Positions 9 to 56,278 of a stretch of 64,000 nucleotides of DNA are shown here, one piece after another. Position numbers and translations under genes: made by a program. Under the pieces are notes generated by a model, which saw only the letters and a program-made list of their open reading frames with translations, ran no database searches and was not told the origin of the DNA. The stretch's first letter is position 1. Every line of letters begins with the position of its first letter. Location of the stretch: the NCBI GenBank assembly GCA_017438975.1, contig JAFRUH010000019.1, positions 12,656 through 76,655 of the forward strand. The letters are read 5' to 3'. The stretch comes from Bacteroidales bacterium (GTDB lineage Bacteria > Bacteroidota > Bacteroidia > Bacteroidales > UBA932).

Positions 9-83
9 TGGTAGCCCGAAGAGGAATCGAACCTCTATTTAAAGTTTAGGAAACTTCCGTTCTATCCGTTGAACTATCGGGCC
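9..83 (-). tRNA. tRNA-Arg (anticodon CCT)
   Basis: Reverse complement GGCCCGA-TA-GTTCAACGGATAGAAC-G-GAAGT-TTCCTAA-ACTTT-...-GAGGTTCGATTCCTC-TTCGGGCT-ACCA folds as a cloverleaf; CCA encoded. Confidence 0.95.
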
Positions 84-5863: not shown

Positions 5864-5867
5864 CATG

Positions 5868-5940
5868 TCGGGATGACTCGACTCGAACGAGCGACCCCTA
5901 CGTCCCGAACGTAGTGCGCTACCAACTGCGCTACATCCCG
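5868..5940 (-). tRNA. tRNA-Pro (anticodon CGG)
   Basis: CGGGATGTAGCGCAGTTGGTAGCGCACTACG-TTCGGGA-CGTAGGGGTCGCTCGTTCGAGTCGAGTCATCCCGA; CCA not encoded (ends ACA). Confidence 0.95.
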
Positions 5941-6237: not shown

Positions 6238-6312
6238 TGGTAGTGGGTAGGAGAATCGAACTCCTATTGCGGGAATGAAAATCCCGAGTACTAGCCGTTA
6301 TACGAACCCACC
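6238..6312 (-). tRNA. tRNA-Glu (anticodon TTC)
   Basis: GGTGGGTTCGTATAACGGCTAGTACTCGGGA-TTTTCAT-TCCCGCAATAGGAGTTCGATTCTCCTACCCACTACCA; CCA encoded. Confidence 0.95.
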
Positions 6313-9871: not shown

Positions 9872-9872
9872 C

Positions 9873-15336: not shown

Positions 15337-15342
15337 CAAAAT

Positions 15343-15372
15343 AGAAGGGGCTGTTTTCAGCCAGCCCCTTCT
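15343..15372. terminator. Hairpin terminator between convergent genes
   Basis: AGAAGGGGCTG-N8-CAGCCCCTTCT perfect 11-bp stem. Confidence 0.8.
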
Positions 15373-15397
15373 CTAATCAACTTGGAAACGAACCGGA

Positions 15398-31718: not shown

Positions 31719-32624
31719 TTATAACTTATTATTGATTTCTTTAAATACTTTTGACCAATACTTTTTGTCTTGTAATGTTTGCTTTATCAGAATATCTGGA
31801 CAATCCGTAATAACATACGAGAAACCATATTCAAAAAACTCATCATAATCCTTAGAAGAATTGAGTGTCCATGTTGATAATGTCATTCCTAAACGATGTG
31901 CATCCTCAACGACGGAATGATTACTCCTGTAAAGGCTGATATAATATGCGAGTCCGGAATAACCTGCTGAAAACAATGAATCTGCAGGAATAAGCGTACC
32001 AGAACTCTGTAATAATTCAACATGAGCATCTGGCAGTTTTTCCATAACTAGTTTACAAGCTGCTTGGGAAAAAGAGATAAAGACTCTCGGGTTCTCTATC
32101 TGCTCTTCTTCCAGCATTTGAACTGTGGGAATAGCGGCTTGTGCTGTTTTCAATTCGACAAAAAGGATTAGATGAGGATATTCTTTTATCTTTCGAAGGT
32201 ACTCTCTTAATGTCGGTATCTTTTCTCCATTAGGAAGAGGGGTCTGAACTAAATCCGAGTATAAAGACCCTGCGATAGAATGCCCGGCATATGTTGAATT
32301 ATGATGTACAATTATAGTATCATCTTTTGTTTTCCATAAATCGAATTCAATCCCATCCACCCCTAATTCTGCCGCAGAAACAATAGACGAAATTGAGTTT
32401 TCATATGATCCTCGCACATCCCAATACCCTCTATGAGCAATAATACGACAATCTCGCTGCTTCCCTTCTGTAGATATCATACCCCCGGAAATACGATTTG
32501 GATGAACGAGTATTAAATCGTTGTTCTTTTCTCGAACAGTGTCTACATCTTGTAGACGTTCGCAGCAACTAACGAATAAAGACAAAGCAAAAAAAACCAG
32601 AATACTGAGTATACTTCGTTTCAC
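31719..32624 (-). CDS. Glycerophosphodiester phosphodiesterase family lipoprotein
   Basis: Lipobox-like FVSC; IAHRG, ENS, EFD, VHH, IPTLRE, VELK, WTLN, ITD. Confidence 0.88.
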   Translation of the reverse strand: MKRSILSILVFFALSLFVSCCERLQDVDTVREKNNDLILVHPNRISGGMISTEGKQRDCRIIAHRGYWDVRGSYENSISSIVSAAELGVDGIEFDLWKTKDDTIIVHHNSTYAGHSIAGSLYSDLVQTPLPNGEKIPTLREYLRKIKEYPHLILFVELKTAQAAIPTVQMLEEEQIENPRVFISFSQAACKLVMEKLPDAHVELLQSSGTLIPADSLFSAGYSGLAYYISLYRSNHSVVEDAHRLGMTLSTWTLNSSKDYDEFFEYGFSYVITDCPDILIKQTLQDKKYWSKVFKEINNKL

Positions 32625-32627
32625 GGG

Positions 32628-33368
32628 TTATTCCTTCAATCTTCCACTATTCATTTTATACTCATAACTATGTTGCCCTTCTCTACGAAAGTCAGCATGA
32701 TATCGCTCCAAAACATCTTTAAAGACATCTTCATACTGAGGGATGAAAAGATCATCTTTTCGCTCTAAATGATAAATAATATCTTGCGCTAAACTCTTCG
32801 TCAATTGTATATCTGTTTTACCGCCATTAAAACTTGTCCCTTTAATACTACCTGGAGAAACATTTAAAATACAATTCTGACTTCCATCTTTTAGAAGTTC
32901 AACATTGACACTCTCGATAAACACTTTAATTGCGGCTTTTGTTGCCGCATACACAGCTAATAGTGGAGAGGACATCCAACCCGCAATACTATCCATCACA
33001 CCACAATAGAAATCCGAAGGACTATCTATTCTGTGATAAAAGCGTTTAATTAATCGAATCACGGGAATTGCATTCACATTAAAAGAGTCTATTATATATT
33101 GTTCTGGGATATCTTTAAACCGAGACAAACGGCCAAATCCTGCTGTTATCATCATAGAATCAATATCATCGAACCGATCAAAGAATGTATAATCCTCTCT
33201 CGCCAAATCAAATTGAAATGATTCTATCTTATTATGCGATAATTCTTTTGGAAATGGAGCTTTATCGACTATATAAACTTTTTGTGTCTTTTCTCGAGTG
33301 ACCATTTCCATAGCGATAGAAAGACCTATTCCACTGGCCCCTCCCACTATAAGAATACGCTTTATCAT
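32628..33368 (-). CDS. SDR family oxidoreductase
   Basis: GGASGIG, TAGFG, YAATK, VSPG. Confidence 0.9.
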   Translation of the reverse strand: MIKRILIVGGASGIGLSIAMEMVTREKTQKVYIVDKAPFPKELSHNKIESFQFDLAREDYTFFDRFDDIDSMMITAGFGRLSRFKDIPEQYIIDSFNVNAIPVIRLIKRFYHRIDSPSDFYCGVMDSIAGWMSSPLLAVYAATKAAIKVFIESVNVELLKDGSQNCILNVSPGSIKGTSFNGGKTDIQLTKSLAQDIIYHLERKDDLFIPQYEDVFKDVLERYHADFRREGQHSYEYKMNSGRLKE

Positions 33369-34179: not shown

Positions 34180-34773
34180 TTAGATCTCAGATCTCTTTCG
34201 GATATCCTCGATATACAGATATCCATTGCTCATCTCTTCCAGCACATTAACCTCCAAAACCTTCTGGGAAGAATATAGCGAAGCCAGATTTTCCTTAGAG
34301 ATCGTCTCATACATACGCAGACCAAGAGACGATGCCAAATCCATCGCACAAAGGCACATTTGTTGTCCAATCCCATGCCCCTGATTACCTATGTCAACCA
34401 TCTTTCCGAGGTAACTCTTACCAATAAAAAAACTGCGCAGGAAGAAATACCCGACGATCTCGCGCTCTCTCAGATAGACATACATCAGGAAAGACGGATT
34501 CTGGGAAAGCCTCTCCAATGATCGCTTATCAAAAGAATGCGGTCGGAAAAACTCAAAAGCTTCTGTTGGCTGCTTAGCAAAGAATGATTCTAAGGCATCA
34601 ATATCCGCTTCTTGAACTCTTCTCACTTTCGGATATTCAGACAGAACTATTCGCTCACTTTTCTCCAGTTTTCTATCATATCGAATCTTGAAAAGAACTC
34701 CATTCCCCCATTCGACTACTTGCCAAATCGGTCTGACATGGAATTGAAGGAAATGTGCAATCTTGTACAGCAA
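34180..34773 (-). CDS. GNAT-like protein
   Basis: LGKMVD...QGHGIG acetyl-CoA-binding-like motif; TISKENLASL. Confidence 0.65.
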   Translation of the reverse strand: MLYKIAHFLQFHVRPIWQVVEWGNGVLFKIRYDRKLEKSERIVLSEYPKVRRVQEADIDALESFFAKQPTEAFEFFRPHSFDKRSLERLSQNPSFLMYVYLREREIVGYFFLRSFFIGKSYLGKMVDIGNQGHGIGQQMCLCAMDLASSLGLRMYETISKENLASLYSSQKVLEVNVLEEMSNGYLYIEDIRKRSEI

Positions 34774-34778
34774 TGCTT

Positions 34779-36263
34779 TTACAAAGCAAATGAAATATCC
34801 TCTCCTCTTCCAACTCTAAATATACTCAATTTGTGATTATGATAATCAGCAATGACTATCGATACAGCTTGCTCTGAAATGGAACCAGATTTAGCTATCT
34901 CCCCATTTATTGTTTGCCAACTATCCGTTGTAAGTATAACGATTGGTATCATGCCTTCTGAAATGACAACGCCATCTCGATGATTATGTCCACCGATACA
35001 AAACTCTATCGTTCCTTTTCCGCCAGAAAAATCATAATAAACACTTTCATTAAGATACTTAAAGACGCCACTTGTTCGCGAATTATAATCGTCAAGGACA
35101 GCGATTATCGGTTTTACATATGACGAAACGACACATTTCTTCTCTCCATCTTCATTTTGTAGACCACACCATATATGACTCGCCATAATAATATGCCACC
35201 CGCTTGGAACAGAATCTAAAGTCTCAATTAAAAACTGTGCAGTCCTAATACTGGCATCGCGAAACTGCGAATAATACAAGCGTCCAGTATCCAAACAAAT
35301 ATATCGCGTTTTTGAAACAGTATCATCAAAATAATAATTATAATAATCCCCATAATAGACATCGTCCATTTGGCTTTGCAAATAAGAATAGACTTGTTGT
35401 TCTGTTAAATGAAGATCTACATTATTGGGCTGTTCATCAGAATTATTATCATGATTACCATAGAGACAATACAATTTATTTCCCAAAAAACTAAAAGACT
35501 TTTTAAAACTCTCCCCTATTTCTATTGCCTCTTGAACAGTTGATGTTTTAGTCGTAATGACATCACCACCAAATAACACTTTACGGACACTTGTGTTGTC
35601 AAGGATATGTTGAATTAAAGCTGGCGAATGCTGTGAATTCTGTCCCCAATGAGCATCCGTAAAAAAAACGAAACTTGCTTGATCCTTGCCTGCCTCCAAA
35701 ATAGCGGCATTCGCATAATCTTCTTTTTGGCACAGTTGAGAGATAAAGTAATCCGGAACTATGAGATTAGGGTCTAAAATGATTGACAAGTCATTGAACG
35801 AGCCATCAGCATAAACTATTGTTATAGTTTTCCCTCTATATATTATGTATGATATATCAGATTGTTGATGGTTATGAGTTTTTTTTGCTTTGATCCCTGA
35901 ATCAACGCCATCTAATAACCAAGTATTATCATCACTTATGGTCAAAACTGGAGTCCTGGGGGATAGATCATTTAAATAGTCCACAACAATTGTTGTCCTT
36001 CCCCCGTTTATTGCCCAACAATTATCTATTATAGATAAAACTGGAGTAAAATCACCAGAAAGATGATAAGTTTGTCCATCTCCTAAAACAATCGATATAT
36101 CTCCACCGGAACAAGAAAAACTTGACACCTGAACTCTTGATTGAATCTCGCTAATTAGTTCTCTTTGCCGAACTAATTGACTTTGAAAGCTTGATAATAA
36201 TTCACGGTAAGTACAGCAGTGAATTATGGATAAACTAAAAACAATCAGAAGTATTCTTTTCAT
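34779..36263 (-). CDS. Calcineurin-like metallophosphoesterase, probable lipoprotein with DUF4988-like N-terminus
   Basis: TDAHW, GGDVI, GNHD, SH, GGHNH complete metallophosphoesterase set; N-terminal TPVLTISDDNTWLLDGVDSGIKA; signal ending HCC. Confidence 0.82.
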   Translation of the reverse strand: MKRILLIVFSLSIIHCCTYRELLSSFQSQLVRQRELISEIQSRVQVSSFSCSGGDISIVLGDGQTYHLSGDFTPVLSIIDNCWAINGGRTTIVVDYLNDLSPRTPVLTISDDNTWLLDGVDSGIKAKKTHNHQQSDISYIIYRGKTITIVYADGSFNDLSIILDPNLIVPDYFISQLCQKEDYANAAILEAGKDQASFVFFTDAHWGQNSQHSPALIQHILDNTSVRKVLFGGDVITTKTSTVQEAIEIGESFKKSFSFLGNKLYCLYGNHDNNSDEQPNNVDLHLTEQQVYSYLQSQMDDVYYGDYYNYYFDDTVSKTRYICLDTGRLYYSQFRDASIRTAQFLIETLDSVPSGWHIIMASHIWCGLQNEDGEKKCVVSSYVKPIIAVLDDYNSRTSGVFKYLNESVYYDFSGGKGTIEFCIGGHNHRDGVVISEGMIPIVILTTDSWQTINGEIAKSGSISEQAVSIVIADYHNHKLSIFRVGRGEDISFAL

Positions 36264-37095
36264 TATGATTCTCTTTCCAAAAAAAAGACAGATACTTAGA
36301 TTCTTTGGGGACCCTTTGATCACTTGGAGGCAGTTTCATATAATCACCATAAATATTGCGTAGGATGCGATCATATCCTTTAGGAATAAAAAAATCATGC
36401 CCTTGAAAAGTAGTTAATTCTAATTGAGAAATATCTTCAATTCTTTGATAGTTCTTTACATGATCATCTGCACAACCTGCCTGAGTCCAATGATTAGATG
36501 AACCGAATTCACATTTTGCGATCTCTGCCTGAATACTATTCTTAATTCTGGACAAGATCTTCTCATTATAAAAGAGACCCCTAAGTACCTTCATCTTAAT
36601 TCTTCTCATAAAAGAGTCGGCCAACTCAACATCTCCTCTTGACTGACGTATTTGACATTGAATAAGCCATAAAAAATGGATCCTTCTAATCCGAGATTTG
36701 AATAATTTGTAATTATCTTCCGCACCATCTATAGGGAATATATCAATCCAAATCCCTCCTGGGTCATCTAATGAATGATAGGGACTGATCGTCTTTACTA
36801 TTGTTCTTTTATCATCATATACTCTACAAAAATTAATGTAGCTATGCTGATCGTATTCAGAAATGATGGAGAAGTTATCAGATTTAAATGACTCACAAAA
36901 TCGGCGATAATCATTTCTTGTCATTACAATATCAATATCATCATCCCAAGGGATAAAGCCGCGGTGGCGAATCGCTCCAAGCAAGGTACCATATGCTAGA
37001 GAATAATGAATTAGGTTTTTTTGGCAAAAAGAGTGAACTTCCAACAATATCTCTAAACAAATATTCTGAATCTCGTTTAATGATAATTTTGACAT
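36235..37095 (-). CDS. LicD family phosphotransferase
   Basis: YGTLLGAIRHRGFIPWDDDID, WIDIFPID, YGDYMKLPP. Confidence 0.92.
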   Translation of the reverse strand: MSKLSLNEIQNICLEILLEVHSFCQKNLIHYSLAYGTLLGAIRHRGFIPWDDDIDIVMTRNDYRRFCESFKSDNFSIISEYDQHSYINFCRVYDDKRTIVKTISPYHSLDDPGGIWIDIFPIDGAEDNYKLFKSRIRRIHFLWLIQCQIRQSRGDVELADSFMRRIKMKVLRGLFYNEKILSRIKNSIQAEIAKCEFGSSNHWTQAGCADDHVKNYQRIEDISQLELTTFQGHDFFIPKGYDRILRNIYGDYMKLPPSDQRVPKESKYLSFFWKENHNEKNTSDCF

Positions 37096-37129: not shown

Positions 37130-38305
37130 TCATCGACGTCCTAGTCCAAAAAATGAGGGAAATAGGGTCAATCGAGTTTTAAGTGCCCTAAGAAAATACG
37201 CAAAAACAAAAAAATAATCTTTCTGATCCCAAAGATAGTAACTATCCGAAGTAACGAAGTCCTTAAGCCATTTAAACAATGAGATCTGTTTGGTCAAAAC
37301 ATATGTCCTAAAATCCTTTATTTCATTGATAACGATCAATGGACTTTTAAGGATCTGTGTGGGTGCAAAACGTCGCATAGTTATTGATCTAATCCAATCC
37401 ATCATCAAATTTGCTCCCATATCAGTTAACGCATGATTATATTGAGTATGCCTAAAATTGATTTCCAAAAAAAATAACTTCCCACTTTTATCTCTCATAA
37501 ACTCTATTTCAAATATCCCCGAATATCCAATATGTTGAAGCATTTTTTTTACTCTCACAAGAATCTCTTCACCTAAAGAATAGCTTTCTAGTTTTTTGTA
37601 TGAGCCAAAACCATCTTTGGGACAACGAAGGTATTCTCCTTGAACTGGAATAATAACTGTATTACCAGAATCTAATGACACACCTTCTAAAGCAATTTCA
37701 TTATCTTTTTCAATAAATGATTGCAATAAGACAGAAGAAGAGCTACACGATTTATAAAAATCCAGTAAATCATTTTCATCCATACAGATAGATGTATCTT
37801 TCTTCCAATAGGGATCAAAAGAATCTATGGACTTGGTAAAAATAGGATAAGAAACTCTTCGGGGCAATTCGCCGACATTGACTTGTTCAGTTTTTGGCAC
37901 ATTGAATCCAACCGATTCTGCTAATGTACATTGTTCAACTTTTGAGAGGAATGCTGACAATCTTTCGTCTTTCCCGGCATTAAAGAAGAAATAATAATCT
38001 TTTAATAAAGAGTAATGTTTGTCTAGTAATGAAATGAACGAGTCACTATCTGATGAAATAATAGCTTTATTATCGAAATTCCTCTTTGAAACAATTAAAT
38101 CAAATGCTTCGAGACTATCGCGGACAGAATAATAATTCCCAATATATTTACACTTTTGAGGATTATGTGAAGAGTTATACTCCATCCATATAACAGTTGG
38201 ATGAATTCCACTTTCCCCTAATGTTCTTATTTGTCCAAGTGTATTAAGAAGGTGTTGCCCTACAACTATAACCTCGATACTATTCAAACGATTGTCTGTG
38301 ACCAT
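37130..38305 (-). CDS. ATP-grasp ligase
   Basis: LSKVEQCTLA..GFNVPKT, YPIFTKS, LLQSFIE, GIFEIEF, FLEINFR. Confidence 0.8.
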   Translation of the reverse strand: MVTDNRLNSIEVIVVGQHLLNTLGQIRTLGESGIHPTVIWMEYNSSHNPQKCKYIGNYYSVRDSLEAFDLIVSKRNFDNKAIISSDSDSFISLLDKHYSLLKDYYFFFNAGKDERLSAFLSKVEQCTLAESVGFNVPKTEQVNVGELPRRVSYPIFTKSIDSFDPYWKKDTSICMDENDLLDFYKSCSSSSVLLQSFIEKDNEIALEGVSLDSGNTVIIPVQGEYLRCPKDGFGSYKKLESYSLGEEILVRVKKMLQHIGYSGIFEIEFMRDKSGKLFFLEINFRHTQYNHALTDMGANLMMDWIRSITMRRFAPTQILKSPLIVINEIKDFRTYVLTKQISLFKWLKDFVTSDSYYLWDQKDYFFVFAYFLRALKTRLTLFPSFFGLGRR

Positions 38306-38909
38306 TTATTCCCGCCATTTTTCTTATTACTCGTGCAATTGTAGTATAGCTACCATTTGGCCTTTTATATAGTTTAATCAACAATATACTACAGACATAG
38401 CGGCATTTATAATACAAGGTATTCCTGAACCCTTGAATATCTTTCTTAAATAGAACAGAATAATAGTTATTTGTCTTAAATGAATCAACGCCAATTTTAA
38501 CAAATCCGCTTTTTAGATGTAAACGAATCGACCAATAAGCGCCTACCGCTGTATCACTAAGAATATAATCACAATGAGTTCTCCTTGCCTCTTCAAAGCA
38601 ATGGTTGATTAACAATGTGCCAATCCCTAAATGCCTTGCTCTTTTACTTACAGCGAGATATGCGATTTTTGCATATCTTCTATCTTTACCCAAAATGAAG
38701 AAAGTGATTGTTCCTAGAAGATTCCCATTCTCATCCATACTGACAAAGATGGTCCCTTCTTTAGTACGGGCCATAAACTCCTCCTGTGTTAATTGCAAAA
38801 GTGATGAGAGAAGCCCATGATCTTTCCACAACTGGAATGAATCAACAATGAGTTGAACGATTTCTTTTATTTCAACTTCCGTATCAATTAATCTTTTGAT
38901 TTCTACCAT
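38280..38909 (-). CDS. GNAT family N-acyltransferase
   Basis: LAVSKRARHLGIGTLLI motif A; SIRLHLKSGF. Confidence 0.85.
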   Translation of the reverse strand: MVEIKRLIDTEVEIKEIVQLIVDSFQLWKDHGLLSSLLQLTQEEFMARTKEGTIFVSMDENGNLLGTITFFILGKDRRYAKIAYLAVSKRARHLGIGTLLINHCFEEARRTHCDYILSDTAVGAYWSIRLHLKSGFVKIGVDSFKTNNYYSVLFKKDIQGFRNTLYYKCRYVCSILLIKLYKRPNGSYTTIARVIRKMAGINGHRQSFE

Positions 38910-40258
38910 TATTGGGAATCAATGAATACTACAGAATGTCTTTTATAATAATCTTCTAGGATTGATGTCATTGCAAAATACTCTTTTTTTGACAATTTAG
39001 AGTACAACAATCTATCTGACAAAACAATACTTGCGAACTCTTTAATCTCATACCTCAACCCCTCTCCCGAATAAGGGTAGAAATACTTCTTATTTTGGTT
39101 TTGGTCTTCATATCTGATCTCGAAGTAATCCGTTTTCCACCATGGCGCCGGGACATAGGCATATCCTTTTGTTCCAGAAATGACCATATTACCTTCTGAT
39201 TTGACTCCCAATCCGACCTGGAAGGAGGCAATCGCAGATTGATACTGAATAACTGCTTTAGTATAGATATCAACACCATTTCGCATCTTTGAATAGAATC
39301 GAATATCCTTATAGTCAGTTCCCAACAATTTAAAGATTGGAAGCAAAGGGAAACATGCATTCTCACTCATACTTCCGCCTAAAAACGCCTTATCTAACTT
39401 TTGAGAAGACTCATCTGTCAATGTCGTAACAGAGGCATTGACATCGACGATTTCACCTATCATCCCAGACTTGAGAAGAGTGATCAGGTGGCCAAATGCC
39501 GGGCAATATGCAGTCTTCAGAGCGACCATCATTACAAGGTTATTCTCTTCAGCAATCTTAAATAACTCTTCCGCCTCTGATCGCTTGAATACAAAAGGAG
39601 TTTCGCACAAGACATGTTTCCCTGCAATTAAAGCCCTGTTTGAATAATCATAATGCGTAATATGAGGAGAAGCGATATATACCGCAGTACAATTCTCCAA
39701 TAATTCCTCAAATGAAGAGGCGACTGTGGGAATTGAAAACTCCTGACAGAAAGACCGGCATTCATCCTGATTAGGATTAAAAGCACCTGTGATCTCTACA
39801 CTATTAACAAAACCAGCCTCTGGAACAAATCTTCTGGCAATACTGCCCGTCCCGACGATCCCAATTTTTACAGATGGCCTCTCTTGTCGAAGTTGCGTGC
39901 TTGATATGCCCTCTGTTCTAGGAAGATATACCACCTCACAGAACTCTTTCAGATAATCGAAATAACCGACCCAATCAGAGCCTATCGCAAAAATGTCAAC
40001 ACCATACTTTTGGATATCATCGATCTTCTGCCCCTTATATTCCTCAATGATAATCTGGTCAGCTAAACCGGTTGAGCGAACGGCTTCTATCCGCTCCATT
40101 ACGTTATTACAGGTATTCAGTTTGCCTCGTTCTAAGTCAAAGTTATCTGTCGTCACCCCGACAATCAGCCAGTTTCCCAGCTCTTTCGCTCTCTTCAGCA
40201 GGTTTAAATGTCCCTGATGAAAGAGATCAAACGTTCCGTATGTGATTACTTTCTTCAT
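38909..40258 (-). CDS. TagD-type cytidylyltransferase fused to Gfo/Idh/MocA oxidoreductase
   Basis: N-term YGTFDLFHQGH, GSDW, RTEGISST; then GIVGTGSIA, ASPH, HVLCETP. Confidence 0.9.
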   Translation of the reverse strand: MKKVITYGTFDLFHQGHLNLLKRAKELGNWLIVGVTTDNFDLERGKLNTCNNVMERIEAVRSTGLADQIIIEEYKGQKIDDIQKYGVDIFAIGSDWVGYFDYLKEFCEVVYLPRTEGISSTQLRQERPSVKIGIVGTGSIARRFVPEAGFVNSVEITGAFNPNQDECRSFCQEFSIPTVASSFEELLENCTAVYIASPHITHYDYSNRALIAGKHVLCETPFVFKRSEAEELFKIAEENNLVMMVALKTAYCPAFGHLITLLKSGMIGEIVDVNASVTTLTDESSQKLDKAFLGGSMSENACFPLLPIFKLLGTDYKDIRFYSKMRNGVDIYTKAVIQYQSAIASFQVGLGVKSEGNMVISGTKGYAYVPAPWWKTDYFEIRYEDQNQNKKYFYPYSGEGLRYEIKEFASIVLSDRLLYSKLSKKEYFAMTSILEDYYKRHSVVFIDSQ

Positions 40259-41301
40259 GCTTCCTCAAATTCTCTAATTCGAGCGGCTAATTCAATCAGT
40301 TCCTCATCAGATTGTAAGCCCATATGTGACACCCTATAAAACCCAGGAATGGATCCAGGCATAATAAACGTCTGATACTTTTCGATTAATCCACGGAAGA
40401 TCTTTCGTTCTTTTGTATCCTTCGTCTGGAAGCCAGTAATGGCATAGGATGGCACTTCAGCAGGTATCGGCCAACCATATCCCTGACACAATTTGCGAAA
40501 TACTCCTGCGCGATGACGGACCGAAGAAATATTCACATACTCTCCCCCTTCTTCCTTTAATTGAATAAGGCGTTCGTGAAGTTGTAAATAGAGAATCGTG
40601 GCTGGACTGAAAGGAGTCTGACCTCTGGTAAGATTGGATAGATTATCGTTGAAATCCCAGTAATAACCATTATGCGCGAATGGGTAGCCATCCACGTTCT
40701 TGCTTAGGAAAAGGATAGACAATCCTGGTGGAATGTTAAGCCCTTTTTGAGTGCTGGTAATACAAATATCAATGCCCAAATCATCCATATTCAACTCTTC
40801 CGCCAAAAAGGTGCTGATTACATCTACGACTATGGAGACTCTATTCTTATGACAAATATCACTAATCCGTTGAAGATCAAACAATTGTCCAGATGAAGTT
40901 TCATGGTGCTGGCATAGGAAAACATCCGGCTTTTCGTCTGCAACAACTCTCTCTAGATCATCATAATCAATATCCTTGGCAAATGGGACCTGGTAATGGA
41001 CTACAGGAACAGAATAATACTGACATAGATCAAACCAACGATGTCCAAATGACCCGCCATCTATGACAATAGCTTTATTTTTTGTCTTAACGTAGTTTTC
41101 CACAACTGCACTCATCGCGCCAGTTCCAGATCCGGTATAGATGATAGTTCGGCCTTGGGAGCAATGGATCAAATCAAGCAAAATCCTCTCTGATTCTTTA
41201 TTGATCTCAGAGAACTCATCTGTTCTCATGTACATAAACGGCTGAGAGCCAATCGACATGATTCGCTCATCAATATCGCCAGGGAATGCGTAGGATCTCA
41301 T
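40255..41301 (-). CDS. Class V PLP-dependent aminotransferase-like enzyme
   Basis: GSGTGAM, HHETSSG, VDVIS, TSTQKGLNIPPG (PLP lysine), RVSHMG. Confidence 0.88.
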   Translation of the reverse strand: MRSYAFPGDIDERIMSIGSQPFMYMRTDEFSEINKESERILLDLIHCSQGRTIIYTGSGTGAMSAVVENYVKTKNKAIVIDGGSFGHRWFDLCQYYSVPVVHYQVPFAKDIDYDDLERVVADEKPDVFLCQHHETSSGQLFDLQRISDICHKNRVSIVVDVISTFLAEELNMDDLGIDICITSTQKGLNIPPGLSILFLSKNVDGYPFAHNGYYWDFNDNLSNLTRGQTPFSPATILYLQLHERLIQLKEEGGEYVNISSVRHRAGVFRKLCQGYGWPIPAEVPSYAITGFQTKDTKERKIFRGLIEKYQTFIMPGSIPGFYRVSHMGLQSDEELIELAARIREFEEA

Positions 41302-41309
41302 ACAATATA

Positions 41310-42212
41310 TTAATTATCCAACTCGATTAAACGTAAAGGGTGTCGCCATCTTTTCTCAATAGGCGGCAAAGACATATAATCAGGCCCAAATTCTGTTTCC
41401 AAATACAATTCTATCTTCCCCGGAACCGGACAACTTACCCCTTCATACTTGTTATACGCAACAGGAAGATACATATCTTTGCTCCTTGGAGTCCATCCAT
41501 AATCCCCTGTCGGAGAGTGCAGCATACCTGTTTCTTTTTTAAGAGACACAAAAGAATCGAAAATCTGCCCCCATTTATCCAATGAAAAGAATGAGAAAAA
41601 AAAGCCAATTGATCGCCTAAGGTAATAGTTGATTTTCAAATCAGGTTTACTCGTCATAAAAGAACGATAAATCTTTGACTTGTTCCTATACATAAGGACA
41701 CATCCGAAAATAAAAATCAATGCAAGAGAACTATATTTCATATAGAACCTCTTCATCCTCCCCTGTGGCATATTCTCCAAAGGAAATATATCGATATATG
41801 CACCACAATACTCATTATCTTGGGCATCGATTGACAAGAACTTGCTTCGCTTATCTATTACTTTTCCAAATAAGCATGTTGTATAACCTCCAAGTAAAGG
41901 AGATGTAACATAATACTTATCTCCATATTCAGAAGGAAACAAGTGAATAAACTTGAGATAATCATCTTTAGGCATAAAAACATCAATATCATCATCCCAT
42001 GGTATGAACCCTTGATGACGATATGCTCCTAAAGCAGAACCATACGCAAGCATCACAGTTAAATCATGCTTCTCACAAAAGGCCTTAATATCCAACCAAA
42101 TGCAAGTAAGATACTTGTGTAAATCAGATAATTCTTTATCAGAAAGAGCGTGAAGATATTCTGATTCATAAGAATACTTCATTATCAGCGTCCTTGTTCT
42201 TAACAGTGCCAT
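41310..42212 (-). CDS. LicD family phosphotransferase
   Basis: YGSALGAYRHQGFIPWDDDID, IDIFPLE, FGPDYMSLPP. Confidence 0.92.
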   Translation of the reverse strand: MALLRTRTLIMKYSYESEYLHALSDKELSDLHKYLTCIWLDIKAFCEKHDLTVMLAYGSALGAYRHQGFIPWDDDIDVFMPKDDYLKFIHLFPSEYGDKYYVTSPLLGGYTTCLFGKVIDKRSKFLSIDAQDNEYCGAYIDIFPLENMPQGRMKRFYMKYSSLALIFIFGCVLMYRNKSKIYRSFMTSKPDLKINYYLRRSIGFFFSFFSLDKWGQIFDSFVSLKKETGMLHSPTGDYGWTPRSKDMYLPVAYNKYEGVSCPVPGKIELYLETEFGPDYMSLPPIEKRWRHPLRLIELDN

Positions 42213-49291: not shown

Positions 49292-50443
49292 TCAAATGTT
49301 GTTGGTATTGTTTAGCAACATCCCTAGCATTCCTTGCGCAAAAGGAAGGTACCCTAATTGTGCGGAATAAGAACCTATTGCCTTTGTATCTCCCTGGCAA
49401 AAATCAAGTTTGCCATTCCTCTGCGTCATTTTTTTTAATCTTACTAATAGCCTGTTAAGAGATTCTTGATACCGGCTATCTTTGGTAATATTGTAAGCTT
49501 CATTTATCAATAAACCGCACAAAACAGTTGAAGATCCTTCTGAAGGTCTTCCTTTAATAAAGAGTTGAGAGCCAAATCCACCATCATCATGCTGACATAA
49601 AAGAACATTATCAGCCAAACGAATAATTCTATTGCTGAATTCTAACTTAGATGGATCTTTTTTATCTGTTTCTTTATACAAACAAATCAAAGCAATGATG
49701 TACCATCCTAAACCTCTTCCCCAATCATATATTCCTAAAGGAGCCTTTAGAGAAATACTATATGCATGACTTGGAAATCCCCAATTAGCCAAACAATAAG
49801 AGTCATAATCAAAGAATACTCTCTTTGCTAATTGAGCAGCTTCTAAACATTCATATGCCACAGCATACTTCGCAAGAAAGGGGCAGACAAAACCAAGAGT
49901 ATCGACAAAACGAGTATCAAATTGTCCTTTTTTATATGGAATTGTATCGTTTACTCCTTTTAACTCCACGATATATGAAAATGTTTCATCCATTGATACT
50001 TTTACTGAAACTGGAGAAACATGGCATAGAACAGCATATGATAATAAACCAATCTCTACCGAATTAGGCTTCCGCCTCCAAGAGCCGTGGTCATTAAATA
50101 AAGAAGATAATAAACTATTGATAGAGTTCTCATCATTACAACCTAACAATAGCCCCGCCAACTGCCAATACTGAATATCGGAACTCCGATTCCTCTTGAA
50201 GATCCGGTCAAACAATAAAAGCCTATCTCTATCTTGCCGTTGAACGATCGGCACATGTAACAACCAATGATTAATAACTCTATCAACAGATTTCTTCCAT
50301 TCATCATCTGAAACCCATTGTCCAATATGTATTCTTGCAAACCACTTGGAAAATGCGATAAAAATATCATAAAGAATAATGATTATCGCAACTAAACCAA
50401 AAACAACAAAAAAATATACTAGAAAATTATTCATTGGAAACAA
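49292..50443 (-). CDS. GH88/GH105-like (alpha/alpha)6 protein with N-terminal TM anchor
   Basis: FVDTLG, WGRGLGWY, QHDDGGF, EGSST. Confidence 0.75.
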   Translation of the reverse strand: MFPMNNFLVYFFVVFGLVAIIIILYDIFIAFSKWFARIHIGQWVSDDEWKKSVDRVINHWLLHVPIVQRQDRDRLLLFDRIFKRNRSSDIQYWQLAGLLLGCNDENSINSLLSSLFNDHGSWRRKPNSVEIGLLSYAVLCHVSPVSVKVSMDETFSYIVELKGVNDTIPYKKGQFDTRFVDTLGFVCPFLAKYAVAYECLEAAQLAKRVFFDYDSYCLANWGFPSHAYSISLKAPLGIYDWGRGLGWYIIALICLYKETDKKDPSKLEFSNRIIRLADNVLLCQHDDGGFGSQLFIKGRPSEGSSTVLCGLLINEAYNITKDSRYQESLNRLLVRLKKMTQRNGKLDFCQGDTKAIGSYSAQLGYLPFAQGMLGMLLNNTNNI

Positions 50444-50520: not shown

Positions 50521-51348
50521 CTAGTCAAAAATCTCAAGTTCAATTGAATGCCCTCCCCGCAGAGATTCAGAGGGCAAATCCCTCCAGCGTTCACCGAACT
50601 TCTGTACCAGATACTGCTCAGGATTGTTTGGGGCCAGTAACAGCAGACCTTCAAAAGGAATACGCCGAAGCGGAAAAACCACATCTTTTGTATGAATATC
50701 CTTGAAAGGGACTCCATAACTATAACTCAGTACCCCATTTGATCGATGCCACGACAATAAATGTGCAACAGGGATTAGCATTGTTTTTATTAAGAAACGA
50801 AATGGCCGTGCCATAAATGAGAGGTGATTCCAGAAGCCATTATTCTCGAAGAAAGGGTATAAGACGAAATGCTTGAACATCCATGTTATGGAATTTGAAA
50901 AACATTGAACATTACCTTCATCAATAGGAAAGATATCTATAGCAAGTCCCTTATAAATAAGACGATCCTGAATATAAGAAGAAGCATTATTCTTACTTTT
51001 CAAATCTCTAATCTTATCCCAAAACATGAGATACCATGGGTCGTTATCATGATTCTGAAGAATATAACCGGAATTCACATTCTTATCTAAAAGAATACGA
51101 TGTAGTTTTTCAGCATCTGCTCTCATCATGCAAACGTCGACATCATCATCCCACGGAATGAAACCTTCATGTCGAACTGCACCTAAAAGTGTTCCTGCAT
51201 CCATCCAATACTTAAGATTATTCTTTGTACAGATATCATCAAACCATTCTAACATCTCAACCATTCGGTATTGAGCAAGACGAAGAACAGAGCCCTCGGG
51301 ATTATACTGTTGATGCAGTAAGATATTTATTTCAGAATCTATCTTCAT
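50521..51348 (-). CDS. LicD family phosphotransferase
   Basis: AGTLLGAVRHEGFIPWDDDVD, IDIFPID, FGERWRDLP. Confidence 0.92.
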   Translation of the reverse strand: MKIDSEINILLHQQYNPEGSVLRLAQYRMVEMLEWFDDICTKNNLKYWMDAGTLLGAVRHEGFIPWDDDVDVCMMRADAEKLHRILLDKNVNSGYILQNHDNDPWYLMFWDKIRDLKSKNNASSYIQDRLIYKGLAIDIFPIDEGNVQCFSNSITWMFKHFVLYPFFENNGFWNHLSFMARPFRFLIKTMLIPVAHLLSWHRSNGVLSYSYGVPFKDIHTKDVVFPLRRIPFEGLLLLAPNNPEQYLVQKFGERWRDLPSESLRGGHSIELEIFD

Positions 51349-51350
51349 AT

Positions 51351-52493
51351 TTAGATAATAGATTTGATCGAACGTATAGCTTGCAGGTAAACTGGAATCA
51401 TAGAAACAAGATGATTCCTAATGATGCTTTCATTATCTGTCAACCATAGAAAATCATCTAACAATTGAGTTTCAGACATTATTGATTTGACCGAAATAAC
51501 ATAGTGTTTATCAGTGCCAAATAAATCAATCGCAATACCTCTTGCTTTGATAGAGTAACCTAATACTATCGTTGGAACCATAGTAGAATATGCTGCAATT
51601 GAAGCATGAGTACGAGCCGTAATCATATAACGGCAGTTTGATATTATACTTTTCAAACTTACAGCATTATTATCGGCAATATAGACGATTCGACTGTTTC
51701 CTTTATAATGATTATATATTTCATTTAGTGATTTGCGATCATCACTACTCCCCCAAACCACATGAGGAATAAGAGCTATTTGCATATCAGTATTATTCAA
51801 GACATAATCAATAAGCCTATAGTAATTATTTAATACTATTCCTTTGATTGTTTCATGTTTGATAATCATGGGACTAACATTAATTCCCAAAGTATTACCT
51901 TTAACGAATCCTTTAGGCAATGCGACATCACTTTTTTCCAGTAAGAAAGCAGGATCTGGGACAAGAGAAACATTCTGAAGTCCTCTTTGAATTAATGCCC
52001 GATATGTAAGACTCTCACGTGCATATATATGAGAATAGCGATGCAAATCTAACAGCATTTGATTATCAATAGCATCAGGCTCAATAGAACATCCCCAGAG
52101 AACTATAGGGACATGCATTTTGCTTAATTGCTCATTTATTAAATAAATATAATTCGGTTTTCCATAACAATAGTTATCACCACCAATTGATAATGCGACA
52201 TCACAAGTCTTTGCCGCCTCAAATACTGGACTAAAATGTAATAAATCTAGAGCATTATCCTTATTAAAGAACTGTCTCTGAAAAAAAGCGAGATAGAACT
52301 TTGGGTTTCTATGCGATAACTGGACTCTATCAGGAATACAATTTACTATTTTCCCTAAACCATAGCGAATATCCTCCTCTTGACAAGATGTCATTAAGGA
52401 AAACTCTCCTCCTAGAATAGTCTTCGTAGAGCGAACGATTGCCTCACACCCGTGATTACCACTACCCCCATGCGGATATAATAAAAACTTCAT
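51351..52493 (-). CDS. Polysaccharide pyruvyl transferase
   Basis: GSGNHGCEAI, IGGDNY, ARES, DPAF, RTHASI, YSIKA. Confidence 0.9.
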   Translation of the reverse strand: MKFLLYPHGGSGNHGCEAIVRSTKTILGGEFSLMTSCQEEDIRYGLGKIVNCIPDRVQLSHRNPKFYLAFFQRQFFNKDNALDLLHFSPVFEAAKTCDVALSIGGDNYCYGKPNYIYLINEQLSKMHVPIVLWGCSIEPDAIDNQMLLDLHRYSHIYARESLTYRALIQRGLQNVSLVPDPAFLLEKSDVALPKGFVKGNTLGINVSPMIIKHETIKGIVLNNYYRLIDYVLNNTDMQIALIPHVVWGSSDDRKSLNEIYNHYKGNSRIVYIADNNAVSLKSIISNCRYMITARTHASIAAYSTMVPTIVLGYSIKARGIAIDLFGTDKHYVISVKSIMSETQLLDDFLWLTDNESIIRNHLVSMIPVYLQAIRSIKSII

Positions 52494-55154: not shown

Positions 55155-56278
55155 GATAATACAAACTCTATCAACTGCATAATCCTTTCAATAGAAAACT
55201 CTTTCCCCCTCTCTTCTGCTTTCTTCGAATAATACTCTAACTCATTCGAAGATAATAATTGCTTGATTCCTTCATACAATGCTTCTTCACTATTAGATGT
55301 TATAAGACCATATTGGCCGTCCTGTAATAACTCATTCATGCCGGAACAATTAGTCGTTATCACAGGAACTCCAAGAATTAGAGCTTCAGTCACAGCAGTA
55401 CTATATCCCTCACTTCTGGAGGAACAAATAAAAAGATCAGATACCTTAAGATATGGATAGGGATTAGGACAAAAGCCCATCAAACTGATATATTTTTGCA
55501 TGTTATTCTCCTCTATCATCCGATTTAGTTTTGAATGATCTGGACCTTCTCCTAAAATATTCAACACAAAATCATATCCCTCATCATGTAATCGTTTTAG
55601 TATTGGAATAAGTCGATCATATCCTTTTTGATGAACAAGCCTACCAATTGATATAAGATTGATATTACCTGTTAGAAAATGACTCCTCTCACAGTTCTTC
55701 CCACTTAGATTTAATATTTCGTCAGAATCAATCGGATTATATAAAACCCCAATGTTATCAAAACCCTTACAAAACTCACTCATTGAATCTTTAACAGATT
55801 TCGAAACACAAATAATTTTGTCGAATTTTTGATACGCCCTTATTTCTTCTTCGCGCGAATGGTAAACTAAATCTGTCCAATGGTTAATCATTAAATCAAT
55901 ATGGACCCATGCTATTTTTTTTGAATGGCGATTCGTGCTATGAGATAGCAATTTCGTAGAAAAACCTTCAATAAAAGCGACCTCAATATCATTCCGCTTT
56001 GGAACAAAAAGAAGGTATACCAGTTTCAATGGCAAAATATTATAAACCAGTTTATATTTAACCTTCCCAAACAGCGTATTCGTTTTATTAAGGATATATT
56101 TATAATTAACACAGGACTTTACCTCACATATATATTCTCCAGTATTTACAATACTACAGACTGTCACATTATATTTTTCCTGATTAATATTCCTCACTAA
56201 TGTTGTGAGTACTTTTTCTGCCCCACCTCCACTGAGTGATTCAATAATAAAAAGAACTTTCTTTTTGTTATAACTCAT
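55151..56278 (-). CDS. Glycosyltransferase family 4-like (paralogue of 54018-55154)
   Basis: GGGAEK, WVHID, GRLVHQKG, SSRSEG; start at MSYNKK. Confidence 0.9.
   Translation of the reverse strand: MSYNKKKVLFIIESLSGGGAEKVLTTLVRNINQEKYNVTVCSIVNTGEYICEVKSCVNYKYILNKTNTLFGKVKYKLVYNILPLKLVYLLFVPKRNDIEVAFIEGFSTKLLSHSTNRHSKKIAWVHIDLMINHWTDLVYHSREEEIRAYQKFDKIICVSKSVKDSMSEFCKGFDNIGVLYNPIDSDEILNLSGKNCERSHFLTGNINLISIGRLVHQKGYDRLIPILKRLHDEGYDFVLNILGEGPDHSKLNRMIEENNMQKYISLMGFCPNPYPYLKVSDLFICSSRSEGYSTAVTEALILGVPVITTNCSGMNELLQDGQYGLITSNSEEALYEGIKQLLSSNELEYYSKKAEERGKEFSIERIMQLIEFVLS

What the first reader, a model, noticed from the sequence alone, without database searches (positions are those of the whole stretch)
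38909..42212. Candidate new CDP-amino-polyol pathway: cytidylyltransferase-Gfo/Idh/MocA fusion, class V PLP enzyme, LicD and SDR
Seen: a TagD-type (HxGH, RTEGISST) domain fused to an intact oxidoreductase, overlapping a class V PLP gene by 4 nt, flanked by licD genes, with an SDR at 32628. Known: CDP-glycerol needs only TagD; CDP-ribitol, -arabinitol and -mannitol use an IspD-like transferase plus reductase (TarIJ, Bcs1, AbpAB, Mnp12) and no aminotransferase. Inference: oxidation or reduction plus transamination of a sugar or triose phosphate gives an amino-alditol phosphate (for example serinol-P or longer) that is CDP-activated and transferred by LicD. With a free amine, plus phosphate and pyruvate ketal, the polymer would be zwitterionic.
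Basis: partly seen in the sequence, partly recalled or inferred. Interest (0 to 1): 0.7.

Follow-up and report, generated by a model that had tools for sequence, protein, structure and literature searches.

The report
Predicted CDP-amino-alcohol capsule decoration module
A tightly linked gene set in a gut-bacterial capsule locus most likely makes a CTP-activated amino-alcohol phosphate (best guess: CDP-serinol) and attaches it to the polysaccharide; the set is common in gut bacteria, I found no published study of it, and none of its chemistry has been tested.

Summary
They sit in an operon with GNAT, ATP-grasp and a second LicD.

The fusion occurs in at least 590 species genomes. In 41 of the 80 loci examined a class V aminotransferase lies beside it, usually with a 4-nt overlap. 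In 31 others a short-chain dehydrogenase takes that place, and no other locus has both.

In other organisms the same cytidylyltransferase subfamily is fused directly to the aminotransferase with no oxidoreductase domain. One such gene sits in a three-gene LicD / CT-aminotransferase / GNAT cassette on a phage-like contig. So aminotransferase, cytidylyltransferase and LicD form the core.

The SDR at 32628 is an alternative partner of the fusion, not a fourth member of the module.

Best reading: dihydroxyacetone phosphate is transaminated to serinol phosphate, activated to CDP-serinol and transferred by LicD, and the amine may then be acylated. None of this chemistry is shown. I rate it a new variant of a known kind, of moderate to high interest.

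The parts
41310..42212 (-). LicD_a, a LicD-family phospho-alcohol transferase (300 aa, DDDID motif)
   Evidence: PF04991, E 5.8e-36. LicD-family genes lie within three genes of the fusion in 37 of the related loci.
40255..41301 (-). Class V PLP aminotransferase (348 aa, subfamily 'AT5-I'). PLP lysine is K186; D160 and R323 are conserved.
   Evidence: PF00266, E 1.6e-22. The best curated family is PhnW-AepZ, at 127 bits against a cut-off of 360.8. The best PDB match is the uncharacterised 3f0h, E 3e-55. The gene lies beside the fusion in 41 of 80 loci.
39881..40258 (-). TagD-like cytidylyltransferase domain of the fusion (residues 1-126), with HxGH and RTEGISST motifs
   Evidence: PF01467, E 5e-19. 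TIGR01518 scores 118 bits against a cut-off of 165. It is 52% identical to TagD, with K44R, K46 kept, and R63G and W74K changes. It is 66% identical to the CT part of the phage CT-aminotransferase fusion P0150.
38909..39871 (-). Gfo/Idh/MocA-fold domain of the fusion (residues 130-449). Non-canonical: EKP is ETP (T220) and the Tyr equivalent is F303.
   Evidence: PF01408, E 1e-22. Alignments to five PDB homologues all place T220 on the EKP lysine. Across 82 homologues that position is T in 69, I in 12, S in 1 and never K. Foldseek TM is 0.85-0.88 against KijD10, 3e9m and 4had.
38280..38909 (-). GNAT N-acetyltransferase (209 aa), whose start shares 1 nt with the fusion stop. Candidate N-acylase of the amino-alcohol.
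   Evidence: PF00583, E 3.7e-15. GNAT genes also flank the module in L001, L008, L018, R. albus 7 and the phage-like cassette.
37130..38305 (-). ATP-grasp ligase-like protein (391 aa). Accessory; role unknown.
   Evidence: Weak matches to PF02222 and PF02786. No informative PDB hit. It is rare among related loci (2 of 80, both SDR-type).
36235..37095 (-). LicD_b, a second LicD-family transferase (286 aa)
   Evidence: PF04991, E 2.9e-45.
32628..33368 (-). Short-chain dehydrogenase (246 aa). It is an orthologue of the conserved downstream partner of the sister clade of fusions, so it is probably a separate or alternative module.
   Evidence: PF00106. It is 52-70% identical to the genes at +1 of clade-B fusions. 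That family occupies +1 in 31 loci, none of which has an aminotransferase.
31719..32624 (-). GDPD-family glycerophosphodiester phosphodiesterase with a lipoprotein-type signal, adjacent to the SDR
   Evidence: PF03009, E 1e-19. GDPD genes lie beside clade-B fusions in four loci.
50521..51348 (-). LicD_c, a third LicD-family transferase, next to the pyruvyl transferase at 51351-52493
   Evidence: PF04991, E 1.7e-35; PF04230, E 1.5e-32.

Best explanation
The core is a three-function module: aminotransferase, then cytidylyltransferase, then LicD.

1. The class V PLP enzyme transaminates a phosphorylated carbonyl compound taken from central metabolism. The most likely reaction is dihydroxyacetone phosphate to serinol phosphate.
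2. The TagD-like domain condenses that product with CTP to give the CDP-amino-alcohol (CDP-serinol).
3. The flanking LicD enzymes transfer the phospho-amino-alcohol onto the capsule repeat unit.
4. The overlapping GNAT, and perhaps the ATP-grasp enzyme, acylate the amine.

The fused Gfo/Idh/MocA-fold domain is conserved but lacks the family's catalytic lysine, and related systems do without it. Its role is open: a scaffold, an NAD(P)-binding domain, or a non-canonical redox step that feeds the keto substrate.

The SDR-GDPD pair 5.5 kb away belongs to the alternative, aminotransferase-free version of the system. That version is probably glycerol-phosphate-like.

Shown: gene content, motifs, conservation, gene fusions and neighbourhoods. 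Inferred: every substrate and product.
For: - **Operon structure.** The genes are tightly packed with a 4-nt overlap.
- **Conserved adjacency.** The aminotransferase sits beside the fusion in 38 of 41 loci whose fusion is at least 64% identical, and in 3 further loci. Two aminotransferase subfamilies that are only 30-35% identical to each other both pair with near-identical fusions.
- **Gene fusions elsewhere.** P0150 and P0236 are CT-aminotransferase fusions, P0139 is aminotransferase-CT, and P0221 is aminotransferase-NTP_transferase.
- **Same CT subfamily.** The CT part of P0150 is 66% identical to the window's CT domain, against 52% for TagD.
- **Phage-like cassette.** P0150 lies on a terminase-bearing contig in a cassette of only LicD, CT-aminotransferase and GNAT. 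The carbonyl substrate must therefore be a common metabolite.
- **Architectures without the oxidoreductase domain.** These are Fusobacterium LicD / aminotransferase / LicC-like transferase, B. finegoldii aminotransferase / CT, and L090.
- **Cross-phylum conservation.** R. albus 7 has LicD, aminotransferase, fusion, LicD, GNAT, LicD.
- **Aminotransferase looks active.** The PLP Lys, Asp and Arg are invariant. Its nearest curated family, the AEP transaminases, acts on a small phosphonate aldehyde.
- **Biochemical precedent.** C. jejuni Cj1437 converts DHAP to (S)-serinol phosphate for capsule decoration (PMC11800397).
- **Natural control.** L001 carries a complete, separate AEP module beside the aminotransferase-fusion-GNAT-LicD module. 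It comprises a TPP-dependent decarboxylase, its own aminotransferase, an NTP transferase, PEP mutase and LicD.
Against: - No biochemical or structural data exist. Serinol phosphate is chosen by elimination and by analogy.
- Cj1437 did not appear among the PDB sequence matches, so the C. jejuni precedent is an analogy, not homology.
- The Gfo/Idh/MocA domain is strongly conserved (65-68% identity within clades, many invariant polar residues). That argues for a real role, which this model does not explain.
- Residues at cofactor and catalytic positions (N161/D161, F303/Y303) track the partner type. This hints that the domain takes part in the chemistry.
- The CT pocket shows no consistent change that marks an amine substrate.
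- No phosphodiester-linked serinol in a polysaccharide was found in the literature searched.
Confidence: 0.45

Rival explanations
1. Nucleotide-level route. The TagD-like domain makes CDP-glycerol from glycerol-3-phosphate. The fused Gfo/Idh/MocA domain oxidises C2 to give CDP-dihydroxyacetone. The aminotransferase converts that to CDP-serinol. In the sister clade the SDR re-reduces the ketone to the other glycerol stereoisomer.
For: - Fused domains usually catalyse consecutive steps.
- The CT domain is 52% identical to TagD.
- The closest characterised relative of the redox domain, KijD10, acts on nucleotide-linked sugars.
- The sister clade keeps a Tyr at position 303 and an Asp at position 161 and pairs with an SDR, TagF-like transferases and GDPD. 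That fits glycerol-based redox chemistry.
- The domain is well conserved.
Against: - The catalytic EKP lysine is absent from all 82 fusions. In the aminotransferase-linked clade the Tyr is Phe as well.
- Aminotransferases 41-58% identical to the second (AT5-II) subfamily work in cassettes with no oxidoreductase domain at all: phage-like, Fusobacterium and L090.
- From my own knowledge, known nucleotide-sugar aminotransferases belong to the DegT family, not class V.
- TagD residues R63 and W74 are not kept.
Confidence: 0.2
2. A different amino-alcohol or amino-acid phosphate is made instead of serinol phosphate. The carbonyl substrate would be some other phosphorylated compound, for example glyceraldehyde-3-phosphate, a pentulose phosphate or phosphohydroxypyruvate. 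The fused redox domain might prepare it.
For: - The aminotransferase-CT-LicD logic holds for any phosphorylated amine.
- Two divergent aminotransferase subfamilies could have different substrates or stereochemistry.
- The conserved redox-fold domain could supply a non-central keto substrate in the fusion-bearing lineages.
Against: - The minimal phage-like cassette and the other oxidoreductase-free architectures require a common metabolite.
- TagD-type enzymes and this domain's close similarity to TagD favour a small C3 substrate.
- The SDR-type sister systems associate with TagF-like transferases and GDPD, which points to glycerol-sized units.
Confidence: 0.15
3. Plain CDP-glycerol, or a stereo-variant of it, is the only activated product. 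The aminotransferase serves another purpose in the locus, such as an amino sugar or amino acid.
For: - One source annotates homologues as glycerol-3-phosphate cytidylyltransferase.
- The CT domain resembles TagD.
- A GDPD gene is present in the locus.
Against: - Direct CT-aminotransferase gene fusions exist, and the 4-nt overlap is conserved across dozens of species.
- The CT domain scores below the TagD equivalog cut-off, 118 bits against 165.
- TagD residues R63 and W74 are replaced.
- From my own knowledge, class V enzymes of this branch are not known to aminate sugars.
Confidence: 0.1
4. A phosphonate pathway. The aminotransferase is an AEP transaminase and the cytidylyltransferase makes CMP-2-aminoethylphosphonate, as in PntC-AEPT systems.
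For: - The top curated family hit is PhnW-AepZ.
- PDB 6pd1 (PntC-AEPT) is matched at E 3e-18.
- Aminotransferase-NTP_transferase fusions exist.
Against: - The score of 127 bits is far below the family cut-off of 360.8.
- The PEP-mutase motif EDKx5NS occurs once in 1.43 Mb of window plus 90 loci.
- That one locus, L001, has its own complete AEP module with a separate aminotransferase only 25% identical, next to the aminotransferase-fusion module.
- No PEP mutase is present in the R. albus, B. finegoldii, phage-like or L090 contexts.
Confidence: 0.05

Closest known systems
TagD/TarD glycerol-3-phosphate cytidylyltransferase with CDP-glycerol-using LicD or TagF transferases
   Same: The fold and catalytic motifs (HxGH, RTEGISxT) are shared, with about 52% identity to TagD. 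The product is presumably a CDP-alcohol used by LicD. Sister-clade loci carry TagF-like transferases.
   Different: The domain scores below the TagD equivalog cut-off, and the TagD-conserved residues R63 and W74 are replaced. It is fused to a Gfo/Idh/MocA-fold domain. It is obligatorily paired with, and in other organisms fused to, a PLP aminotransferase or an SDR.
PntC-AEPT / CMP-2-aminoethylphosphonate pathway (Treponema denticola, PDB 6pd1)
   Same: The logic is the same: a class V aminotransferase makes a small phosph(on)o-amine, which a nucleotidyltransferase CMP-activates for transfer to glycans. The two enzymes are sometimes fused.
   Different: No PEP mutase or phosphonopyruvate decarboxylase is present. 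The nucleotidyltransferase here is TagD-type, not LicC-type. The aminotransferase falls well below the AEPT family cut-off. In L001 both systems coexist as separate modules.
Campylobacter jejuni HS:2 serinol branch (Cj1437 DHAP transaminase, Cj1438C ATP-dependent amidoligase, Cj1435 phosphatase)
   Same: A PLP transaminase makes an amino-alcohol phosphate from DHAP for capsule decoration. An ATP-dependent ligase and a phosphoesterase gene are nearby in both systems.
   Different: In C. jejuni serinol phosphate is amide-linked to glucuronate and then dephosphorylated, with no CTP activation and no LicD. Homology between Cj1437 and this aminotransferase was not shown.
TarI/TarJ, Bcs1 and C. jejuni CDP-glucitol type CDP-alditol pathways
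   Same: A reductase plus a cytidylyltransferase makes a CDP-polyol for phosphodiester decoration. This is closest to the SDR-type sister clade.
   Different: Those pathways use IspD/LicC-fold transferases and have no aminotransferase. Here the transferase is TagD-fold and the fused redox domain lacks its catalytic lysine.
Pneumococcal Gtp1-Gtp2-Gtp3-WchX (CDP-2-glycerol, serotypes 15 and 23)
   Same: A capsule-locus cassette of a dehydrogenase, a nucleotidyl transferase, a third enzyme and a phospho-alcohol transferase. It installs an unusual glycerol phosphate.
   Different: Gtp3 is annotated as a phosphotransferase, not a PLP enzyme (PMC3493582). I could not obtain the sequences or the primary paper, so homology is untested.

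Membership tests
Glycerol-3-phosphate cytidylyltransferase (TagD, TIGR01518) | HxGH and RTEGISTT nucleotide-binding motifs | tested here: met
   FHQGH and RTEGISST are present and invariant in 82 homologues.
Glycerol-3-phosphate cytidylyltransferase (TagD, TIGR01518) | Score at or above the curated equivalog cut-off | tested here: not met
   118.2 bits against a cut-off of 165.4.
Glycerol-3-phosphate cytidylyltransferase (TagD, TIGR01518) | Residues conserved in TagD and TarD around the substrate site (K44, K46, R63, W74) | tested here: not met
   K46 is kept. K44 is R, R63 is G, and W74 is K/R in the window's clade, F/V/L in the sister clade, E in R. albus and A in the phage-like protein. The roles of these residues are recalled from the TagD literature and were not re-derived here.
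Gfo/Idh/MocA oxidoreductases | Two-domain fold with an N-terminal Rossmann GxGxxG/A motif | tested here: met
   PF01408 and PF22725 match. G133, G136, G138 and A141 are conserved. Foldseek TM is 0.85-0.88 against KijD10, 3e9m and 4had.
Gfo/Idh/MocA oxidoreductases | Catalytic Lys of the EKP motif | tested here: not met
   The motif is ETP in the window. Across 82 fusions the position is T in 69, I in 12, S in 1 and never K. All five aligned PDB homologues have EKP.
Gfo/Idh/MocA oxidoreductases | Second acid/base pair (Asp, then His or Tyr four residues on) | tested here: not met
   E299 is invariant, but the Tyr/His position is F303 in the window and in 43 of 82 fusions. It is Y in 37, mostly in the SDR-linked clade.
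Class V aminotransferases (AGT / SPT / AEPT branch) | PLP-binding Lys, pyridine-N Asp and C-terminal substrate Arg | tested here: met
   K186, D160 and R323 are invariant across 48 sequences of both subfamilies. PF00266 matches.
AEP transaminase (PhnW-AepZ) / phosphonate pathway | Family cut-off score, plus PEP mutase and phosphonopyruvate decarboxylase in the locus | tested here: not met
   127 bits against a cut-off of 360.8. The PepM motif is absent from the window and from 89 of 90 loci. L001 has a separate AEP module.
LicD phospho-alcohol transferases | PF04991 above the gathering score, with an acidic DxD-type motif | tested here: met
   The three genes score 125, 155 and 124 bits against a cut-off of 22.6. 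DDDID or DDDVD motifs are visible in the translations.
TarI/TarJ-type CDP-alditol pathway | IspD/LicC-fold cytidylyltransferase plus an alcohol-dehydrogenase-type reductase | tested here: not met
   The only nucleotidyltransferase in the 64-kb window is the PF01467 domain.
C. jejuni Cj1437-type DHAP transaminase | Sequence homology to Cj1437, and DHAP to serinol-phosphate activity | not testable with these tools
   No Cj1437 sequence was available. The activity needs an enzyme assay. Only the published reaction is cited.

The most novel reading that the evidence does not exclude
Gut Bacteroidales, some Firmicutes, Fibrobacter and Fusobacterium, and at least one phage would share an undescribed pathway. 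It turns DHAP into a CDP-activated C2-substituted glycerol analogue: CDP-serinol through the aminotransferase, or a non-standard CDP-glycerol stereoisomer through the alternative SDR. LicD or TagF-type enzymes then install the unit on capsules. The fused Gfo/Idh/MocA-fold domain, which lacks its catalytic lysine, would be either a new catalytic variant of that superfamily or a dedicated non-catalytic partner domain.
Probability: 0.35. Interest if true: 0.72.

Novelty: new variant of a known kind. Interest (0 to 1): 0.6.

Why it matters
If the prediction holds, CDP-serinol or a close relative would be a new nucleotide-activated building block. Phospho-serinol would be a new and very common decoration of gut-commensal capsules. 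The fusion alone occurs in at least 590 species genomes, with thousands of near-identical metagenomic homologues.

Depending on N-acylation, an amine next to a phosphate could give zwitterionic or acylated epitopes. These are relevant to immune recognition and to phage adsorption. The phage-like cassette suggests phages use the module to remodel the host surface.

The finding also flags a large, conserved subfamily of Gfo/Idh/MocA-fold domains without the canonical catalytic lysine. Databases currently label its members 'oxidoreductase' or 'glycerol-3-phosphate cytidylyltransferase', and neither label is likely to be fully correct.

Tried and rejected
1. **Pneumococcal Gtp1-3 / WchX lead.** I first suspected the module was the published CDP-2-glycerol pathway. 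The primary papers are not held. Secondary sources call Gtp3 only a 'putative phosphotransferase'. Homology could not be tested and nothing rests on it.
2. **Phosphonate (AEP) reading.** Rejected on the family score, the PepM-motif scan and the dual-module locus L001.
3. **CT pocket residues.** I looked for positions that separate aminotransferase-linked from SDR-linked fusions. Positions 42 and 75 looked promising, but they vary freely in the R. albus and phage-like proteins, so I dropped them.
4. **IMG/VR scans.** Scans for the fusion and for the CT-aminotransferase protein found nothing. The phage GenBank collection gave only short, unannotated faecal-virome contigs.
5. **PDB searches.** Sequence searches for the ATP-grasp protein and the SDR gave nothing informative.
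6. **Structure model of the fusion.** The model is only moderate (mean pLDDT 69.8, with the CT domain poor). I used it only to confirm the fold of the redox domain.
7. **Literature.** Searches for CDP-serinol, serinol with LicD, serinol with polysaccharide and phosphodiester, and cytidylyltransferase with LicD and aminotransferase found no relevant paper. The library omits most subscription journals, so prior work cannot be excluded.

Full report
**Setting**

The window carries a low-GC island, about 29.2-57.5 kb at 30-40% GC, inside sequence of about 57% GC. All island genes are on the minus strand, and together they form a Wzx/Wzy-type polysaccharide locus:
- a small Bac_transf initiating transferase;
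- eight glycosyltransferases;
- an EpsG-type polymerase and a probable flippase;
- a pyruvyl transferase;
- two O-acyltransferases (Acyl_transf_3 and a hexapeptide-repeat enzyme) and a GNAT N-acetyltransferase;
- three LicD genes;
- a GDPD phosphodiesterase, an SDR and a metallophosphoesterase.

The scaffold comes from a metagenome assembly.

**Observation**

The finding's coordinates match three ORFs exactly:
- LicD, 41310-42212;
- a 348-aa class V aminotransferase, 40255-41301;
- a 449-aa fusion, 38909-40258.

The aminotransferase stop and the fusion start overlap by 4 nt. A GNAT (38280-38909) shares 1 nt with the fusion stop. An ATP-grasp gene (37130-38305) and a second LicD (36235-37095) follow.

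Fusion residues 1-126 are about 52% identical to B. subtilis TagD and S. aureus TarD, with the HxGH and RTEGISST motifs. Residues 130-449 match GFO_IDH_MocA and its C-terminal domain. The aminotransferase has the AGT-type PLP-lysine motif (K186), the PLP aspartate (D160) and the C-terminal arginine (R323). All three are invariant in 48 relatives.

**The 'intact oxidoreductase'**

The domain is full length, and its model superposes on KijD10, 3e9m and 4had with TM 0.85-0.88. Alignments to five solved homologues all place Thr220 on the catalytic lysine of the family's EKP motif, and Phe303 on KijD10 Tyr186.

Across 82 fusion proteins the EKP position is T in 69, I in 12 and S in 1, and never K. 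Even so, the domain is well conserved, at 65-68% identity within clades. It keeps many invariant polar residues: H199, H202, K248, H257, E299, K353, E355, K375, R382, R402, Y403 and E404. So it is functional in some sense but is not a canonical Gfo/Idh/MocA enzyme.

**How common it is, and what travels with it**

The protein database holds thousands of homologues at 74% identity or higher. A scan of one genome per species found at least 590 carriers. Most are Bacteroidales, but Fibrobacter, Akkermansia-labelled MAGs and Saccharicrinis also appear. I analysed the 80 best loci.

- **Aminotransferase-linked loci.** Forty-one fusions are at least 64% identical to the window's. Thirty-eight of them have a class V aminotransferase adjacent, usually upstream with the same 4-nt overlap.
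  - Thirty are of the window's subfamily (AT5-I, 64-78% identity).
  - Eight are of a second subfamily (AT5-II, about 30% identity to AT5-I).
  - LicD genes flank most of these loci.
- **SDR-linked loci.** In the sister clade (58-62% identity), 31 loci instead have an SDR immediately downstream and no aminotransferase. Their other neighbours are TagF-like CDP-glycerol glycerophosphotransferases, GDPD and LicD.
- **The window's SDR.** The gene at 32628-33368 is 52-70% identical to those partner SDRs, and a GDPD gene sits beside it.
- **No overlap of the two types.** None of the 80 loci has both an aminotransferase and the SDR. The window is the exception, and it contains only one cytidylyltransferase.

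**Gene fusions and minimal cassettes**

An exhaustive HMMER search with the aminotransferase found 185 clusters (at 50% identity) with E at or below 1e-30. Several are multidomain proteins. P0150 and P0236 are cytidylyltransferase-aminotransferase fusions, P0139 has the reverse order, and P0221 is aminotransferase fused to a LicC-type NTP transferase.

The cytidylyltransferase part of P0150 is 66% identical to the window's. That is closer than TagD, so it belongs to the same subfamily, with the aminotransferase occupying the place of the Gfo/Idh/MocA domain.

P0150 lies on a contig with a large-terminase gene. Its cassette is just [DUF4422-LicD], [CT-aminotransferase] and [GNAT].

Other architectures:
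- Ruminococcus albus 7 plasmid pRUMAL01: LicD, aminotransferase, fusion (47% identity), LicD, GNAT, LicD, GT2, pyruvyl transferase, flippase.
- Fusobacterium vincentii: LicD, aminotransferase, LicC-like transferase, metallophosphoesterase.
- Bacteroides finegoldii: TagF-like transferase, aminotransferase (57% identity), stand-alone cytidylyltransferase.
- L090: TupA-type ATP-grasp, aspartate decarboxylase, aminotransferase-NTP transferase, LicD.

The invariant core is thus an aminotransferase, a nucleotidyltransferase and a phospho-alcohol transferase. The Gfo/Idh/MocA domain is dispensable, and amine-modifying enzymes (GNAT) recur next to the core.

**Mechanism**

Several cassettes, one of them phage-like, have no enzyme that could make a special keto substrate. 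The aminotransferase must therefore use a common phosphorylated carbonyl compound.

DHAP is the simplest candidate, for three reasons:
- the cytidylyltransferase is very TagD-like, which implies a C3-sized phospho-alcohol;
- the sister clade is surrounded by glycerol-phosphate enzymes (TagF-like, GDPD);
- C. jejuni already shows a PLP transaminase making (S)-serinol phosphate from DHAP for its capsule (PMC11800397).

I therefore propose this sequence: DHAP is converted to serinol phosphate by the aminotransferase, then to CDP-serinol by the TagD-like domain, and LicD_a and LicD_b transfer phospho-serinol. GNAT or the ATP-grasp enzyme may then N-acylate it. All substrates and products are inferred.

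The alternation of aminotransferase and SDR suggests that both enzymes act on the same ketone. They would give C2-amino or C2-hydroxy products for the same type of cytidylyltransferase. That would explain why an extra reductase is present even though glycerol-3-phosphate is abundant, for example if the other stereoisomer is made. This part is speculation.

**Rivals**

- **Nucleotide-level route** (CDP-glycerol to CDP-dihydroxyacetone to CDP-serinol). It fits the domain fusion and the kinship with KijD10. It also fits the clade-specific residues N161/D161 and F303/Y303. It conflicts with the missing lysine and with the oxidoreductase-free cassettes.
- **Phosphonate (AEP) pathway.** Effectively excluded. 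The aminotransferase scores 127 bits against a cut-off of 360.8 for PhnW-AepZ. The PEP-mutase motif occurs once in 1.43 Mb. That one locus, L001, has a complete separate AEP module lying next to the aminotransferase-fusion-GNAT-LicD module. The AEP module consists of a TPP-dependent decarboxylase, its own aminotransferase, an NTP transferase, a cytidylyltransferase-PEP mutase fusion and LicD.
- **Plain CDP-glycerol with an unrelated aminotransferase.** Contradicted by the direct gene fusions.

**Known systems and novelty**

The module works like PntC-AEPT (amine, then CMP activation, then transfer) and like TagD with LicD. It borrows the chemistry shown for Cj1437. It fails membership tests for a true TagD, for a canonical Gfo/Idh/MocA oxidoreductase and for AEPT.

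I could not test the pneumococcal Gtp1-3 system because neither the sequences nor the primary paper were available. Ten literature searches found no description of a CDP-amino-alcohol pathway or of this fusion, but the library is incomplete.

I rate the finding a new variant of a known kind. It is widespread, unannotated and experimentally tractable in cultured strains: R. albus 7, B. finegoldii and Segatella bryantii DSM 11371.

Noticed in passing
window 29200-57600: The whole polysaccharide locus is a low-GC island (30-40% GC) in a genome of about 57% GC. The switch at about 29.2 kb is sharp. This suggests the locus was acquired from, or exchanged with, a low-GC Bacteroidales donor.
   Followed up: partly
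window 56268-58655 (minus strand): A 795-aa ORF spans the upstream GC boundary. Its N-terminal 300 or so residues are high-GC (59-66%) and include a signal peptide and a Ser/Thr/Gly/Ala-rich linker. Its C-terminal beta-helix-like part (weak NosD hit) is low-GC (about 30-37%). The recombination junction seems to lie inside the gene.
   Followed up: partly
L001 127-10793: One rumen MAG locus carries two phospho(no)-amine modules side by side. The first is a complete AEP set: TPP decarboxylase, class V aminotransferase, NTP transferase, cytidylyltransferase-PEP mutase fusion and LicD. The second is LicD, AT5-I, fusion, GNAT, LicD.
   Followed up: yes
L084 6004-10266: A phage-like contig (terminase large subunit at 14794-15570) carries a three-gene cassette: DUF4422-LicD (666 aa), CT-aminotransferase fusion (485 aa) and GNAT (266 aa). 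It is a candidate phage-encoded surface-polysaccharide modification.
   Followed up: partly
L086 2006-9375: An aminotransferase-CT fusion (P0139) sits among a CDP-alcohol phosphatidyltransferase, a B12-binding radical SAM enzyme, several SAM methyltransferases, NeuB and a CMP-sugar synthetase. The CDP-amine may be further methylated there, or used for a lipid head group.
   Followed up: no
L090 6557-10693: A TupA-type ATP-grasp gene and an aspartate 1-decarboxylase (a beta-alanine source) lie directly upstream of an aminotransferase-NTP transferase fusion and LicD. This hints at beta-alanylation of the amine.
   Followed up: no
L042-L080 (for example L078, Segatella bryantii DSM 11371, 8001-10081): A sister clade of the fusion always has an SDR at +1 (31 loci), often with TagF-like transferases and GDPD. 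It keeps Tyr303 and Asp161, which the aminotransferase-linked clade has lost. Its chemistry is also unknown.
   Followed up: partly
window 34180-34773: A 197-aa ORF between the metallophosphoesterase and the initiating transferase has no Pfam or NCBIfam hit. By eye its sequence has a GNAT-like Q/R-x-x-G-x-G/A stretch (NQGHGIGQQ).
   Followed up: no
window 49292-50443: A membrane-anchored protein with a weak GH88 (unsaturated glucuronyl hydrolase) match lies inside the biosynthetic locus, between the flippase and LicD_c.
   Followed up: no
window 9-83, 5867-5940, 6238-6312: Three tRNA genes (Arg-CCT, Pro-CGG, Glu-TTC) lie on the minus strand in the high-GC flank, far from the island borders.
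   Followed up: no
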